24,000 nucleotides of DNA from Azospirillum fermentarium (GTDB lineage Bacteria; Pseudomonadota; Alphaproteobacteria; Azospirillales; Azospirillaceae), in contig NZ_JAOQNH010000002.1 in assembly GCF_025961205.1 (NCBI RefSeq), forward strand, positions 1,024,208 through 1,048,207, read 5' to 3'. How positions within the stretch are numbered: the first letter of the stretch is position 1; the number at the start of each line of letters is the position of its first letter. A program made the translations under genes and the position numbers. Of the stretch, positions 1 through 5,637 are shown in pieces. Below the pieces are notes generated by a model that saw only the letters and a program-made list of their open reading frames with translations, had not been told where the DNA came from and did not search any database.

Positions 1-992
1 TGGGGGGCAAGGGGGCGGGGCTGCGCGACGCCCTGGCGGTGGTGGCGGCGGTGGCGCGGGGGGAACCGTCCACCGCCCTGGTGCTGACGCTGCAATACAT
101 CATCCATCACCAGATGTGGCGCGGCACCCGCTGGCCGGCGGACCTGCGGGACCGCATCGGCCGCACCGCCGTCACCGACGGGGCGGTCATCAACGCCCTG
201 CGGGTGGAACCGGAATTGGGCACCCCCTTGCGCGGCGGGCTGCCGGCGACGGTGGCGCGCAAGGTGGCGGGCGGCTGGCGGATTTCCGGCACCAAGCTCT
301 ATTCCACCGGCGTGCCGGTGCTGGCATGGCTGTCGGTGTGGGCGCGCTCGGACGAGGATGAGCCGCGGGTCGGCGCCTGGATCGTGCCCGCCGGCACCGA
401 CGGGGTGGAGATCCGTCCGGTGTGGAACCACATCGGCATGCGCGCCAGCGGCAGCCACGAGGTGGTGTTCCACGACGTCTTCATCACCGACGATCTGGTG
501 GGCGACATTCGCCCGCCCGCGCAGTGGGCGGCCCCCGACGCTGTGGGCAGTGCGTGGACCGCCGCCTTGTTCAGCGCCGTCTATGATTCCGTCGCCCAGG
601 CGGCGCGGGATTGGCTGTTGGGCTTCCTGCGCACCCGCACGCCGACCACCCTGGGCGGGGCGGCGCTGTCCACGGTGCCGCGGCTCCAGGAAGCGGTGGG
701 CGGGATCGAGGCGCTGTTGCAGACCAACCGCGTGCTGCTGCGGTCACTGGCGGCGTCGGTGGATGCGGGCACCCCGCCGCCGCCCCACGAAAGCCTGCTG
801 GTGAAATACACGGTGACCAACAACGCCATCGCCGCGGTGGCGAAGGCGGTGGAGATCACCGGCAACCCCGGCCTGACCCGTGACAACCCGCTGGAGCGGC
901 ATTACCGCGACGTCCTGTGCGCCCGCGTCCACGCCCCCCAGAACGACATGATCCTGACCGCCGCCGGCCGGGCGGCGCTGGCGGGGCCGTAA
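1..992 (+). CDS. Acyl-CoA dehydrogenase-fold flavoprotein, C-terminal part (5' end outside the window); possibly an SfnB/DszC-type sulfur-acquisition oxidoreductase
   Basis: ORF 39..992 begins at a GTG, and the same frame stays open back to nt 3, so the gene is truncated by the window edge. The translation has the ACAD middle beta-domain and C-terminal helical-domain character (…GMRASGSHEVVFHDVFI…, …ITGNPGLTRDNPLERHYRDVLCARVHAPQNDMIL…). The SfnB/DszC subtype is suggested only by the sulfonate context. Confidence 0.7.
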   Translation, partial: GGKGAGLRDALAVVAAVARGEPSTALVLTLQYIIHHQMWRGTRWPADLRDRIGRTAVTDGAVINALRVEPELGTPLRGGLPATVARKVAGGWRISGTKLYSTGVPVLAWLSVWARSDEDEPRVGAWIVPAGTDGVEIRPVWNHIGMRASGSHEVVFHDVFITDDLVGDIRPPAQWAAPDAVGSAWTAALFSAVYDSVAQAARDWLLGFLRTRTPTTLGGAALSTVPRLQEAVGGIEALLQTNRVLLRSLAASVDAGTPPPPHESLLVKYTVTNNAIAAVAKAVEITGNPGLTRDNPLERHYRDVLCARVHAPQNDMILTAAGRAALAGP

Positions 993-1015
993 CGGCCCCG
1001 CCAGCCGGCGGCGGG

Positions 1016-2320
1016 TCACACCCAGTGCGCCCGCACAGCCTTCAGGATGTTGCGGACCTTGGGAAGGGCGATGGAGAAATTGGACCGGTACCACCCGCCG
1101 CCGAAGTGAAGGGCGAGCACCTGATCCTCGTTTTCGTTGAGCGGCACGACGCACGATCCCGAGTTTCCGCCAAGCGTGCTCGAATCATGGGAAACCACCC
1201 AGTTCCCCTTATCGTCGATGTTGCTGCCGGGAAGGCTGACGATCTGCCCCGGCGACAGGCGTTTCACCCCGAACTTCCCGTTGAAGTAGCGGAGAAGATC
1301 CATGTTCTTTTTGTCGGCCTCCGCGTCCGTCGGCTGGATCACCGTCCGCCCCGGATACCCGACGACGAAAAGATCCTTGCCCTCCACCAACAGGCTTTCC
1401 TGAGACGACAGGCTGAGGGCGGGGGGCAGGGAGCGCCCGTCGGCATTGGTGGTTTCGACCTCGAAGATGGCCATGTCCATATTGGACAGGTTCATGCTCT
1501 GCTTGTATCGGGCGATCTTGATGCGGTCGGGGATCGTCGTGTCCATCAATTCCGGCACGGCCAGGGGGCCGATGAAAAAGGGCTCCTTGACCCGGAATTG
1601 CAGCCGGCCCTGCATCCCATCCCCTTCCTTGAAGTCGATGGAAACACCGGGCTTGACCGCCCACGCCCGATTTCTGCGGAAACCGCTTTCCCCATGGCGC
1701 ACGATGGCATCGTGGGTCGCCTTTTCCGCCAGGAATACGGCGACATGGACATTGGTCATAATCAGGCCGGGGGCGATCACGTACCCGGTTCCCACCTGCT
1801 GGCCATTGAGATTGATCCGCCCCACCGAACCGATGGTTCTCTTGATCTGCCCCATGTTTCTTTCCAGCGTGTCGCGCCACCGGATGGCCTGGGGATCGTC
1901 CAGCAGAATCCCGCCGTTCCTCACCAGCAGCGCGGGGCGGTCGAAGCTGCTGATGATCGCTTCCAGATTGCCCGCGTCCTCATCGTCGGGAACGGCGTCC
2001 GGATCCGAGCGCTCCAGAAGGGCAACCGACTTCTCAAGCCGCCCGATCAGCGCCGACTGCTCATCGTCGGTCAACGCCTCCTCACCGTCCTCCTTGGCGA
2101 TGGTCTGGGCGAATTTCAGGACACTGGCCACATGATCCAACAGGCCGTTGACCGTTCCCCCGAAAACATCAACCGAGGATTTGAGAGCGGGGCTGATGGA
2201 TTCCGTCTGGAACGCCACGCCGTAATCACCGATCCCCAGAACCTCCCGATACTCACCGACTTTGCGGGGGACAAATTCGAGATCATCGAGAACATTATCA
2301 TGTACGATATCGCCATTCAT
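1016..2320 (-). CDS. Cytoplasmic trypsin-like (S1/Trypsin_2-type) serine peptidase with an uncharacterised ~190-aa N-terminal region
   Basis: His, Asp and Ser motifs occur in the canonical order: GTGYVIAPGLIMTNVHV, DMAIFEV, TLGGNSGSCVV. No signal peptide or lipobox is visible. I prefer the start at ATG 2320 because GGAGAA lies 8 nt upstream. ATG 2332 is an alternative. The ORF-track start at 2395 lies in AT-rich, non-coding-looking sequence. My hand count for 2101-2220 is 69/120 G+C, against 85/120 for 2701-2820 in the neighbouring gene. Confidence 0.8.
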   Translation of the reverse strand: MNGDIVHDNVLDDLEFVPRKVGEYREVLGIGDYGVAFQTESISPALKSSVDVFGGTVNGLLDHVASVLKFAQTIAKEDGEEALTDDEQSALIGRLEKSVALLERSDPDAVPDDEDAGNLEAIISSFDRPALLVRNGGILLDDPQAIRWRDTLERNMGQIKRTIGSVGRINLNGQQVGTGYVIAPGLIMTNVHVAVFLAEKATHDAIVRHGESGFRRNRAWAVKPGVSIDFKEGDGMQGRLQFRVKEPFFIGPLAVPELMDTTIPDRIKIARYKQSMNLSNMDMAIFEVETTNADGRSLPPALSLSSQESLLVEGKDLFVVGYPGRTVIQPTDAEADKKNMDLLRYFNGKFGVKRLSPGQIVSLPGSNIDDKGNWVVSHDSSTLGGNSGSCVVPLNENEDQVLALHFGGGWYRSNFSIALPKVRNILKAVRAHWV

Positions 2321-2366
2321 TTTCTTCTCCATAAAAGAATTTGTAAAATTACTCCAAGTCTTAAAA

Positions 2367-2415
2367 TTGATAATTATGCAACATCTCACGGTCAATGATT
2401 TTGCATTGACCGTGA
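2367..2415 (-). promoter_or_regulatory. Putative sigma-70 promoter of the protease gene, overlapped by a perfect 12-bp inverted repeat (operator-like)
   Basis: On the minus strand, TTGACC (2395-2390) is followed by 17 nt and then TATCAA (2372-2367), about 45 nt upstream of the ATG. The inverted repeat is tcacggtcaatg (2386-2397), a 6-nt spacer, then cattgaccgtga (2404-2415). The -35 hexamer lies inside one arm. No T-run follows the repeat on either strand, so it does not look like a terminator. Confidence 0.4.
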
Positions 2416-2526
2416 AATTTCGAGATTTTGATTTATTTGTTGTTTTGAATCAAGGCCATAATATTGTCGGAAAGATTTTCTGGTATACATTTGCATGCCA
2501 GAAAAGGCGGGAAACCCTTCATACTC

Positions 2527-3601: not shown

Positions 3602-4395
3602 TTATCCTTTGGCCTGCAGGATCGCGTCGGCCACCTCGACAAAGCCGGCGCCGCCGGGGCCGCGGGTCACCCAGGTGGGTGGCACCGGCAGGTGGGGGAG
3701 GAAATCGACGACGGTGCTGACGCCGACGCTGTTGCCGAAGAAGGCGAACATGGGGGCGTCGTTGGTGGAATCGCCCACGTACAGAATCTCGTCCCCCCGC
3801 TCGTCGATGGGCAGGCCGTGGGCCTCGGCCATCACCCGCCGGGCCATGGTCAGCTTGTCGTAATCCCCGAACCAGCCCAGCACCCACAGGGAGTTCACGG
3901 TCACCCGCGCGCCGGCATCCCGGAACGCCGCCAGCAGCGCGTCGCGCACCCCCGCATCGGCGGGTGCGTCGTAGGCGAGGCTGGTCAGGCGGAACGGCTG
4001 GTCGGAGGCGACGCGGGCCACCGGCACCCGTTCGGCAATGGCGGCGGCCAGGGCGTCGAGCCGGGCCGCCACCGCCGCCCGCTCCGGGTCCGGGTGCCAG
4101 AAACGGCGGGTGACGGCGCCGCCGCCGGGGCTGTCGAAGTAAAACCCGCCGTTCTCGCCGATCACCCCGCCGATGGGCCACATGCGGGCCATCTGGTCGC
4201 ACCAGCCCGCCGGGGCGGCGGTGACCGGGATCACCGGCACCCCGCCGCGGCGCAGCCGTTCCAGGGCGGTGTATGTCTGCGCCGCCAGCGCACCATGGTG
4301 CGTCAGCGTGTCGTCCATGTCGGTCAGAACGAAGCGGACCCGCCGCAGCCGTTCCGCCGGCGCCCCGGACAGCGGGCGCATCCTCTCCCCCGCCA

Positions 4396-4396
<1 letters not shown>
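3602..4396 (-). CDS. HAD-superfamily phosphatase (HAD-IIB-like)
   Basis: Motif I is DxDxT (FVLTDMDDTLT) and motif IV is YVGDSTNDAPMF. The start, ATG 4396 or GTG 4399, overlaps the TGA stop of the upstream ThrC-like gene (GTGATG). Confidence 0.75.

Positions 4397-5637
<1,241 letters not shown>

What the first reader, a model, noticed from the sequence alone, without database searches (positions are those of the whole stretch)
1016..2526. Lower-GC, signal-less trypsin-like protease with an unassignable N-terminal region, wedged between sulfur-metabolism genes
**Seen in the sequence.**
- The gene is clearly less GC-rich than its neighbours. My hand counts are 69/120 G+C for 2101-2220, against 85/120 for 2701-2820.
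- It is preceded by an AT-rich 5' region of about 200 nt (2321-2526).
- It has an intact His/Asp/Ser triad.
- It has no signal peptide.
- The first ~190 residues are acidic and helical-looking (…DDEQSALIGRLEKSVALLERSDPDAVPDDEDAGNLEAIISSFDRPALLVRNG…) and match nothing I recognise.
- It is convergent with the ACAD-like gene across a 23-nt gap.

**Established knowledge.** Intracellular trypsin-fold proteases fused to uncharacterised N-terminal modules recur as effectors in prokaryotic conflict and defence systems.

**Inference.** This looks like a horizontally acquired single-gene insertion. It could be a self-contained or orphaned effector of that type, with the N-terminal region as a sensing or inhibitory module. 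No partner NTPase or sensor gene is visible, which weakens the defence-system idea.
Basis: partly seen in the sequence, partly recalled or inferred. Interest (0 to 1): 0.6.

Follow-up and report, generated by a model that had tools for sequence, protein, structure and literature searches.

The report
Orphan conflict-system serine protease in Azospirillum
This is an intact, foreign-looking, cytoplasmic trypsin-fold protease whose relatives elsewhere work alongside second proteases, latent effector enzymes and STAND ATPases in bacterial conflict systems, but which sits here alone in an Azospirillum metabolic operon, so it is a stranded member of a known but biochemically untested family.

Summary
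A 434-aa gene lies at 1016-2320 (-), starting at the ATG at 2320.
- Its GC is 0.60 against a genome mean of 0.68.
- A 206-nt leader at 33% GC precedes it.
- It has no signal peptide.
- The His192/Asp282/Ser387 triad is intact.
- A 23-nt gap separates it from the convergent ACAD-like gene.

The organism is an Azospirillum. The gene is single-copy, and I found no orthologue in 40 other species of the genus.

Across 1.84 billion representative proteins, the best relative other than the gene's own record is 41% identical. By sequence, the protein belongs to the trypsin-like peptidase family that Kaur et al. (2020) placed in peptidase/NucA/STAND conflict systems. PADLOC also models this family (PDLC03010).

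Relatives are either fused to S8 subtilase, NucA or lipase domains, or sit next to a metallophosphoesterase, a second trypsin-like protein and a STAND NTPase. No such partner exists in this 99.9%-complete genome.

Only about the first 115 residues are truly unassignable. They are acidic and helical, with no Pfam, PDB-sequence or PDB-fold match, and partner proteins do not share the region. Residues 116-165 are a conserved part of the protease module.

Verdict: an orphan, horizontally acquired member of a known kind. Its function here is unknown. Interest is modest.

The parts
1016..2320 (-). Protease gene: 434 codons plus the TGA stop at 1016-1018. The start is the ATG at 2320-2318.
   Evidence: ORF. 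GGAG at 2330-2327 lies six bases before the ATG. Pfam Trypsin_2 scores 37.8 bits against a 27.6 cut-off. PADLOC PDLC03010 gives 1.3e-31. The family HMM gives 4.8e-97 over positions 28-384 of 388.
1976..2320 (-). Residues 1-115: an acidic, helical N-terminal region specific to this lineage and still unassigned.
   Evidence: pI 4.1. Helices at 57-77 and 85-104 have pLDDT of about 90 in the full-length model, and residues 1-13 and 34-42 fall below 50. No family, PDB-sequence or PDB-fold match. Top relatives mostly align only from residue ~92-119 onwards.
1826..1975 (-). Residues 116-165: the conserved pre-core segment of the protease module (helix, strand, two helices), carrying the E120, A121, R128, P129 and W148 motifs.
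   Evidence: R128, P129 and W148 are invariant and E120 nearly invariant in the 101-sequence alignment. A121 is invariant in the 43-sequence alignment and present in 90 of the 101. Secondary structure.
1019..1825 (-). Residues 166-434: chymotrypsin-fold catalytic domain. Catalytic codons are H192 (1745-1747), D282 (1475-1477) and S387 (1160-1162). The S1-pocket candidates are T382 and H405.
   Evidence: Triad invariant in 101/101, T382 in 100/101, H405 in 101/101. Foldseek top matches are the Esp and V8 Glu-specific endopeptidases (E 2.6e-10, TM on target 0.75). The phmmer alignment to Esp covers the GGNSGS and H-F/Y-G-G motifs.
2321..2526 (-). AT-rich (33% GC) leader and promoter region between the Ldh_2 stop and the protease start.
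   Evidence: Composition. Only weak sigma-70-like consensus matches. No Rfam family.
2383..2418 (.). Operator-like palindrome: perfect 12-nt arms with a 6-nt spacer at 2386-2415, with imperfect extension to 15-nt arms. It lies 66-95 nt upstream of the ATG.
   Evidence: Inverted repeat I4. The full palindrome occurs only here in the genome.
2476..2505 (.). Imperfect 14-nt inverted repeat just after the Ldh_2 stop. It may be the end of the upstream operon's transcript.
   Evidence: Inverted repeat I7, 86% complementary. The consensus scan did not call it a terminator.
977..1005 (.). Perfect 14-bp GC-rich hairpin spanning the ACAD-like stop and the 23-nt convergent gap. It looks like a terminator for both genes but has no T-run.
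   Evidence: Inverted repeat I2, 100% complementary with a 1-nt loop. No terminator call.

Best explanation
The gene encodes a stranded, partner-less copy of the peptidase module used by a known class of bacterial protease-effector conflict systems.

**What the family looks like elsewhere.** The module is a short helical N-region followed by a V8-like trypsin-fold domain. It is either fused behind an S8 subtilase, a NucA nuclease or a lipase, or encoded directly after a metallophosphoesterase. It is commonly followed by a second trypsin-like protein and a STAND NTPase. Published work proposes that such proteases act in a proteolytic cascade that licenses latent effectors.

**What is here.** In this Azospirillum, the module alone was acquired by horizontal transfer and landed at the variable 3' end of a conserved transporter/ThrC-like/Ldh_2 operon.

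**Shown**
- Family membership by sequence and fold.
- An intact catalytic apparatus.
- A cytoplasmic-type sequence.
- Absence of every known partner from the genome.
- Foreign composition.

**Inferred**
- The enzyme is still an active endopeptidase that prefers acidic (Glu) P1 residues.
- It is held latent by its acidic N-terminal region, and at the transcriptional level by a repressor bound to the unique palindrome in its AT-rich promoter.
- With no cognate effector or sensor, it no longer runs the ancestral pathway in this host. What it cleaves here, if anything, is unknown.
For: **Family and fold**
- Trypsin_2 scores above the Pfam cut-off.
- The PADLOC model PDLC03010 matches at 1.3e-31. 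It matches a 389-aa homologue end to end at 1.1e-44, so it models this family.
- The AlphaFold model has pLDDT 84 and pTM 0.86. Its best PDB matches are the Esp and V8 Glu-specific endopeptidases.
- H192, D282, S387 and H405 are invariant and T382 is present in 100 of 101 members. All are present in this protein.

**Context of relatives**
- Metallophosphoesterase followed by the protease, plus EAD1-trypsin and STAND genes.
- Protease followed by a 619-aa trypsin-like protein and a STAND NTPase.
- Among 90 family proteins in 80 genome loci, 50 have a recognised fusion or partner, including 12 of the form S8-fusion + second trypsin + STAND.
- NucA-fused homologues also occur.
- This matches 'System 3' of Kaur et al. 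2020, PMC7159879. It also matches the protease-effector logic, including metallophosphoesterase modules, in Evans et al. 2025, doi 10.1101/2025.11.14.688446.

**Orphan status**
- Single copy in its genome.
- No EAD1 domain and only generic P-loop hits.
- No family-specific metallophosphoesterase, second trypsin-like protein or STAND gene in a six-frame search of the 99.9%-complete genome.

**Foreign origin**
- Low GC and GC3.
- No orthologue in 40 congeners.
- A. ramasamyi has the same operon without it.
- The best relative other than its own record anywhere is 41% identical.
- It sits on a long branch at the base of a clade supported 100/99 that holds the S8+STAND and metallophosphoesterase types.

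**Cytoplasmic**
- No hydrophobic N-terminus and one Cys. 104 of 105 stand-alone relatives also lack a hydrophobic N-terminus.
Against: - No expression or activity data exist.
- The long terminal branch (1.31), two private insertions (about residues 199-215 and 255-275) and a degenerate copy of the family's G-L-E-S motif could reflect relaxed constraint.
- 40 of 90 family proteins had no partner that my reference set recognised. Partner-less life may therefore be normal for part of the family rather than a sign of stranding. That count is an overestimate, because some of these loci carry ~1000-aa STAND-like genes my references missed.
- Glu specificity rests on residue equivalence with V8, ETA and SGPE recalled from memory, not on an assay.
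- The latency role of the N-region is untested. I could not read model coordinates to see whether it covers the active site.
Confidence: 0.7

Rival explanations
1. It is a self-contained single-gene defence or abortive-infection protease. The N-terminal region senses a phage cue or is removed upon it, and the freed protease degrades host or phage proteins.
For: - The catalytic and S1 residues are intact.
- The N-region is acidic while the catalytic domain is basic, pI 4.1 against 9.1.
- A disordered loop at residues 34-42 lies where relatives carry a conserved G-L-E-S motif.
- A unique operator-like palindrome suggests tight repression.
- Many relatives show no recognised partner within 10 kb.
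Against: - The N-region is short and poorly conserved, with no fold match and nothing resembling a sensor domain.
- The gene lies among metabolic genes, not in a defence island.
- Its nearest relatives by score are S8-fused proteins from three-gene operons with STAND sensors.
- There is no PHROG or other PADLOC match.
Confidence: 0.12
2. It is a functionless relic. The last surviving gene of a degraded conflict system, it drifts neutrally and has not yet been broken.
For: - It has no partner.
- Its terminal branch is long.
- It carries private insertions with low model confidence, with residues 207-212 below pLDDT 50.
- Its G-L-E-S motif is degenerate.
- The gene is known from a single genome only.
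Against: - The 434-codon frame is open and has a good ribosome-binding site.
- All 19 invariant and all 25 nearly invariant family positions are kept.
- GC3 is 0.79, well above the leader's 33% GC, which suggests long residence with the coding frame maintained.
Confidence: 0.13
3. It is a domesticated cytoplasmic protease working with the adjacent operon, co-transcribed with the transporter/ThrC-like/HAD/Ldh_2 genes.
For: It lies on the same strand, directly downstream of Ldh_2. The scan called no terminator between them.
Against: - A 206-nt spacer at 33% GC, with an inverted repeat after the Ldh_2 stop and its own promoter-like and operator-like elements, separates the two genes.
- The same operon in A. 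ramasamyi and other Azospirillum species lacks the protease.
- The composition differs from that of the operon genes.
Confidence: 0.04
4. It is an ordinary secreted V8-like protease, and the N-terminal region is a secretion signal plus propeptide.
For: The best structural and sequence matches are secreted staphylococcal Glu-specific proteases that are made as pro-enzymes.
Against: - There is no hydrophobic segment in the first 70 residues and only one Cys.
- 104 of 105 stand-alone relatives also lack a hydrophobic N-terminus.
- In fused relatives the same helical region sits in the middle of 900-2100-aa cytoplasmic-type proteins alongside NTPase domains.
Confidence: 0.01

Closest known systems
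[quoted passage not shown] The same protein family is modelled as PADLOC PDLC03010.
   Same: - It matches the family profile over its full length.
- Relatives show exactly the architectures described: NucA fusions, S8 + trypsin in one polypeptide, EAD1-trypsin paralogues, STAND NTPases and peptidoglycan hydrolases nearby. They are frequent in Alphaproteobacteria.
   Different: - This genome has no NucA, S8, second trypsin-like protein, EAD1 or STAND partner.
- Identity to the closest relative other than its own record is at most 41%.
- The first ~100 residues are private to this protein.
Protease-effector modules of antiviral defence, in which a trypsin-, caspase- or subtilisin-like protease licenses a latent effector. 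The effectors include MBL nuclease, alpha/beta-hydrolase, Pepco, EACC1 and metallophosphoesterase (Evans et al., bioRxiv 2025, doi 10.1101/2025.11.14.688446).
   Same: Eleven of the 90 sampled family proteins are encoded directly after a ~425-aa metallophosphoesterase gene, with gaps of about 20-90 nt. This is the layout of a protease-effector pair.
   Different: - In the characterised modules the protease is fused to, or accompanied by, a large sensor. This protein has neither a sensor nor an effector.
- That paper names the metallophosphoesterase module but does not characterise it.
Glu-specific endopeptidases of the S1B subfamily: S. aureus V8 (GluV8), S. epidermidis Esp, and the exfoliative toxins.
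   Same: - These are the best PDB matches by sequence (E 0.03) and by fold (E 2.6e-10, TM on target 0.75).
- The Thr and His at the positions of chymotrypsin 190 and 213 are conserved across the family. Their role in Glu recognition is my recollection of the literature.
   Different: - Those enzymes are secreted with a signal peptide and a short propeptide. This protein has no signal peptide.
- It also carries a 165-residue helical N-extension that those enzymes lack.
- Identity is only 17-19%.
Effector-associated domain (EAD)-tagged trypsin effectors of STAND, vWA-MoxR and GTPase conflict systems (Kaur et al. 2020).
   Same: It has a short helical N-terminal region in front of a trypsin-like effector. 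EAD1-trypsin proteins occur in the same operons as some relatives.
   Different: - There is no EAD1 match in the protein or anywhere in the genome.
- The N-region profile finds only family members.
- The N-region shows no profile-profile similarity to the N-termini of partner proteins, with probability below 1%.

Membership tests
PA-clan S1 serine peptidase (Pfam Trypsin_2) | Profile match above the curated cut-off | tested here: met
   PF13365 scores 37.8 bits against a cut-off of 27.6, E 3.9e-9.
PA-clan S1 serine peptidase (Pfam Trypsin_2) | His, Asp and Ser catalytic triad in that order | tested here: met
   H192, D282 and S387 fall in columns invariant in 101/101 family sequences. The codons were checked in the DNA.
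PA-clan S1 serine peptidase (Pfam Trypsin_2) | Double beta-barrel chymotrypsin fold | tested here: met
   The AF2 model has pLDDT 84 and pTM 0.86. Foldseek gives 808 PDB matches at E <= 0.001, and all of the top 50 listed are trypsin-fold proteases. The best match has TM on target 0.75-0.77.
Kaur 2020 'System 3' peptidase family / PADLOC PDLC03010 | Full-length similarity to the family protein, including the pre-core motifs (E120, A121, R128, P129, W148) | tested here: met
   PDLC03010 gives 1.3e-31. The family HMM built here gives 4.8e-97 over positions 28-384 of 388. The motifs are present.
Kaur 2020 'System 3' as a system | Linked NucA endonuclease and/or further peptidase domains (S8, second trypsin) in the same protein or operon | tested here: not met
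   The neighbours are ACAD-like and Ldh_2 genes. No paralogue or family-type second trypsin-like protein exists in the genome.
STAND/NLR-type defence system (Avs, bNACHT and similar) | A STAND NTPase in the protein, the operon or the genome that matches the partners of relatives | tested here: not met
   The nSTAND1 search of the genome gives only weak generic P-loop hits. A STAND profile built from 21 partner proteins gives only a hit at E 4e-4 over the P-loop region.
Protease-effector module (metallophosphoesterase type) | An adjacent latent effector gene, the ~425-aa metallophosphoesterase, upstream of the protease | tested here: not met
   The upstream gene is Ldh_2, across a 206-nt spacer. 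A profile built from 12 partner metallophosphoesterases gives only a partial hit at E 1e-3 elsewhere in the genome.
EAD-tagged effector | An N-terminal effector-associated domain also carried by partner proteins | tested here: not met
   No EAD Pfam hit. No EAD1 in the genome. The N-region HMM hits only family members. hhalign against partner N-termini gives probability below 1%.
Glu-specific endopeptidase (S1B, V8-like) | S1 pocket Thr190/His213 equivalents and P1-Glu cleavage | tested here: inconclusive
   T382 (100/101) and H405 (101/101) lie 5 residues before and 18 residues after the catalytic Ser, and they align with Esp's S-T-V-G-G-N-S-G-S and I-H-Y-G-G motifs. The specificity itself needs an assay.
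Glu-specific endopeptidase (S1B, V8-like) | Secreted pro-enzyme with a signal peptide | tested here: not met
   There is no hydrophobic N-terminal segment.

The most novel reading that the evidence does not exclude
The whole family may be a self-processing, Glu-directed 'release' module.

- The conserved G-L-E-S motif lies in a disordered linker, exactly at the junction between the variable N-terminal enzyme (S8, NucA, lipase) and the helical region.
- That motif could be the site where the protease cuts itself, or is cut by the paired trypsin-like protein, to free and license the effector.
- The Azospirillum orphan would then be a naturally minimised version that works alone: a protease under transcriptional control whose acidic N-region is its own removable inhibitor.
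Probability: 0.15. Interest if true: 0.6.

Novelty: new member of a known kind. Interest (0 to 1): 0.3.

Why it matters
The family is widespread. An exhaustive search found 1090 cluster representatives at E <= 1e-10, spread across Actinomycetota, Acidobacteriota, Pseudomonadota, Chloroflexota and other phyla. The papers I read describe it only computationally, and I found no biochemical work on any member.

A naturally isolated copy with no fused domain and no partner is a convenient minimal object for three questions:
- Does the module have activity on its own?
- Does it prefer Glu at P1?
- Does the helical N-region inhibit it?

Beyond that, the finding is ordinary. It is one more stranded fragment of a mobile conflict system in a metabolic locus, with no evidence that it does anything for its host.

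Tried and rejected
1. **Exact empty-site comparison.**
   - The flanks are only 77-81% identical in the other Azospirillum species.
   - The ACAD-like and Ldh_2 genes lie 4-30 kb apart in those species.
   - Gene order differs: transporter genes lie between them in G022, and the HAD gene is missing from the A. ramasamyi and A. brasilense operons.
   - No clean with/without pair exists.
2. **Mobile-element scars.** No flanking direct repeats were convincing, and the ORF and family scans of the first 6 kb showed no transposase or integrase. I did not run the tRNA scan.
3. **N-region as a shared EAD-like adaptor.** Rejected. Four metallophosphoesterase N-termini gave weak HMM hits (E 0.14-2.6), but profile-profile comparison gave 0.7% probability.
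4. **N-region fold.** Residues 1-168 were modelled alone (pLDDT 72) and gave no PDB match better than E 0.81.
5. **Palindrome regulon.** The full palindrome occurs nowhere else in the genome.
6. **Other libraries.** Rfam, PHROGs and NCBIfam returned nothing useful. BFVD gave only generic viral trypsin-fold proteases.
8. **PADLOC model name.** The model that matches is labelled 'nacht' with no description. It is 378 positions long and aligns end to end with the protease family, so I read it as a model of this protease, not of a NACHT NTPase. I could not find out which system it was taken from.
9. **Model coordinates.** These were not available to me, so I could not check contacts between the N-region and the active site.
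Full report
**The gene.**
- The longest ORF on the minus strand runs from 2395 to 1016 (TTG start, 459 aa).
- The family alignment and the sequence favour the ATG at 2320. GGAG lies six bases upstream of it, and homologues start at the equivalent place, one of them also with M-N-G-D.
- This gives a 434-aa protein, P0001.
- The public gene call uses a GTG at 2389 and gives 457 aa.

**Checking the observation.**
- Both hand counts are exact, and the convergent gap is 23 nt.
- Gene GC is 0.603 against a genome mean of 0.68, the 5.7th percentile of equal-length windows. GC3 is 0.786 against 0.876-0.921 in the neighbouring genes.
- The 206-nt leader is 33% GC, in the lowest 0.13% of such windows.
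- There is no hydrophobic N-terminal segment. Residues 1-115 are acidic (pI 4.1), the rest is basic (pI 9.1), and the protein has one Cys.
- The H192/D282/S387 triad is present and invariant across the family.

**Organism and locus.**
- The plasmid collection identifies the genus as Azospirillum. The window is 84-85% identical to chromids of A. brasilense, A. argentinense and A. ramasamyi over the Ldh_2, ThrC-like and permease genes.
- The window lies on a 1.24-Mb contig of a 5.89-Mb, 99.9%-complete genome.
- In A. ramasamyi the operon runs substrate-binding protein, ATPase, permease, threonine-synthase-like, Ldh_2, and ends against a different convergent gene. It has no protease and no HAD gene.
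- In other species the ACAD-like and Ldh_2 genes are 4-30 kb apart.
- The protease therefore sits at a variable operon end. An exact empty site cannot be shown.
- It is single-copy.
- None of 40 other genomes searched has an orthologue. One congener, G001, has distant relatives inside ~950-1000-aa proteins next to a second trypsin-like gene, which looks like a fuller version of the system though no STAND gene was seen in the fetched stretches.

**What family it is.**
- Pfam sees only Trypsin_2.
- PADLOC model PDLC03010 matches at 1.3e-31, and matches a 389-aa homologue end to end at 1.1e-44. It is a model of this protein family, whatever its label 'nacht' means.
- The word-indexed search of 5.8 billion proteins found the gene itself once and otherwise nothing above 35% identity.
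- The exhaustive HMMER search of 1.84 billion representatives found 2027 relatives at E <= 1e-3, 1090 at E <= 1e-10 and 51 at E <= 1e-30. The best hit apart from its own record is 41% identical, in a 957-aa protein. Most top hits align only from query residue ~92-119 onwards.

**Context of relatives.**
- Three look-ups showed these layouts:
  - a metallophosphoesterase followed by the protease, with a 32-nt gap;
  - EAD1-trypsin proteins, STAND NTPases (AAA_16, nSTAND1) and peptidoglycan hydrolases nearby;
  - the protease followed by a 619-aa trypsin-like protein and a 1092-aa STAND NTPase.
- In 80 loci from named genomes, 90 family proteins fall as follows:

| Architecture | Proteins |
|---|---|
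| N-terminal fusion of any kind (mostly S8 subtilase in ~940-aa proteins; one GDSL lipase; one 2108-aa AAA_16-S8-trypsin protein) | 24 |
| of which, N-terminal fusion followed by a second trypsin-like protein and a STAND NTPase | 12 |
| Directly after a metallophosphoesterase | 11 |
| No partner recognised by my reference set | 40 |

- The 40 is an overestimate. Some of those loci carry ~1000-aa STAND-like genes that my references missed.
- Homologues fused to Endonuclease_NS (~750 aa) also exist.
- This is the picture Kaur et al. 2020 describe as 'System 3', for which they propose a proteolytic cascade that deploys the nuclease.
- Evans et al. 2025 show experimentally, for other protease-effector modules, that site-specific cleavage licenses latent effectors. 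They list a metallophosphoesterase module among the uncharacterised ones.

**Position in the family.**
- On a maximum-likelihood tree, the window's protein is a long branch (1.31 substitutions per column).
- It sits at the base of a clade supported 100/99 that holds both the S8+STAND type and the metallophosphoesterase type.
- It has no near neighbour. Its donor lineage is unsampled.

**Orphan status.**
- The genome has no EAD1 domain and only generic P-loop hits to nSTAND1.
- I built profiles from the relatives' partner proteins: 12 metallophosphoesterases, 19 second trypsin-like proteins and 21 STAND NTPases. They find nothing family-specific in a six-frame search of the whole genome.

**Structure.**
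- The full-length AlphaFold model is confident (pLDDT 84, pTM 0.86).
- Its elements are helices at 21-28, 44-53, 57-77, 85-104 and 113-126, a strand at 131-134, helices at 143-165, and then the double beta-barrel.
- The best PDB matches are Esp and V8, then SplA, the exfoliative toxins, MarP (Rv3671c) and HtrA-type proteases.
- BFVD gives only generic viral proteases.

**The N-terminal region.**
- The family HMM covers the helical region in fused proteins as well, where it lies between the N-terminal enzyme domain and the trypsin domain. It is therefore part of the module, not an add-on.
- Residues 116-165 are well conserved.
- Residues 1-115 are not, at 7-24% identity in an N-region alignment. 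The only recurring feature there is a basic patch followed by G-L-E-S, with frequencies G 62, L 80, E 76 and S 49 out of 101.
- P0001 has a degenerate version of this motif, with a four-residue insertion, in a loop of pLDDT below 50.
- A profile of the N-region hits only family members.
- hhalign against the N-termini of the metallophosphoesterase, second trypsin-like, STAND and S8-fused proteins gives below 1% probability. The region is therefore not a shared EAD-like adaptor.
- Modelled alone, residues 1-168 give pLDDT 72 and no PDB fold match (best E 0.81).

**Specificity inference.**
- T382 and H405 lie 5 residues before and 18 residues after the catalytic Ser. These are the positions of chymotrypsin 190 and 213.
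- They are conserved in 100/101 and 101/101 sequences and align with the same residues of Esp.
- From my memory of the V8, exfoliative-toxin and Streptomyces SGPE literature, this pair marks Glu-specific S1 pockets.
- Together with the conserved G-L-E-S junction, this suggests cleavage after Glu at the junction, by the protease itself or by a partner. This is a hypothesis, not a result.

**Regulatory region.**
- The leader holds a perfect 12-nt palindrome with a 6-nt spacer at 2386-2415, unique in the genome.
- It also holds an imperfect inverted repeat just after the Ldh_2 stop.
- The consensus scan found only a weak sigma-70-like match, one that overlaps the start codon.
- There is no Rfam family.
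- A perfect 14-bp hairpin spans the convergent gap.

**Verdict.**
The sensing or inhibitory role of the N-region remains unproven.
- The protein is a new, divergent, partner-less member of a known, computationally described family.

Noticed in passing
window 2383-2418: There is a perfect 12-nt palindrome with a 6-nt spacer in the protease leader, 66-95 nt upstream of the ATG. It occurs nowhere else in the 5.9-Mb genome, so if it is an operator its regulator controls only this gene.
   Followed up: partly
window 3602-4399: The HAD-hydrolase gene between the ThrC-like and Ldh_2 genes is missing from the otherwise collinear operon in A. ramasamyi, and the A. brasilense matches also skip it. Its GC is native (0.73, GC3 0.92). 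It looks like an older, separate insertion into the operon.
   Followed up: partly
L002-L005 (G001, contig C3, about 705-711 kb): Another Azospirillum species carries two divergently oriented family members inside ~950-1000-aa proteins, one followed by a second trypsin-like gene. It looks like a fuller version of the system whose protease is stranded in the window.
   Followed up: partly
L032-L111, family N-regions: A conserved G-L-E-S motif sits in the linker exactly between the variable N-terminal enzyme domain and the helical region of the protease module. The protease's S1 pocket carries the Thr/His pair typical of Glu-specific enzymes. Together these suggest a self-cleavage or cascade site.
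   Followed up: partly
L033:4661-10987: One relative, in Candidatus Ideonella, has the AAA_16 NTPase, the S8 subtilase and the family trypsin module in a single 2108-aa ORF. It may combine sensor and two proteases in one polypeptide, although the ORF call could be over-extended.
   Followed up: no
window 977-1005: A perfect 14-bp GC-rich hairpin with a 1-nt loop overlaps the ACAD-like stop codon and fills most of the 23-nt convergent gap. It has no T-run on either strand.
   Followed up: no
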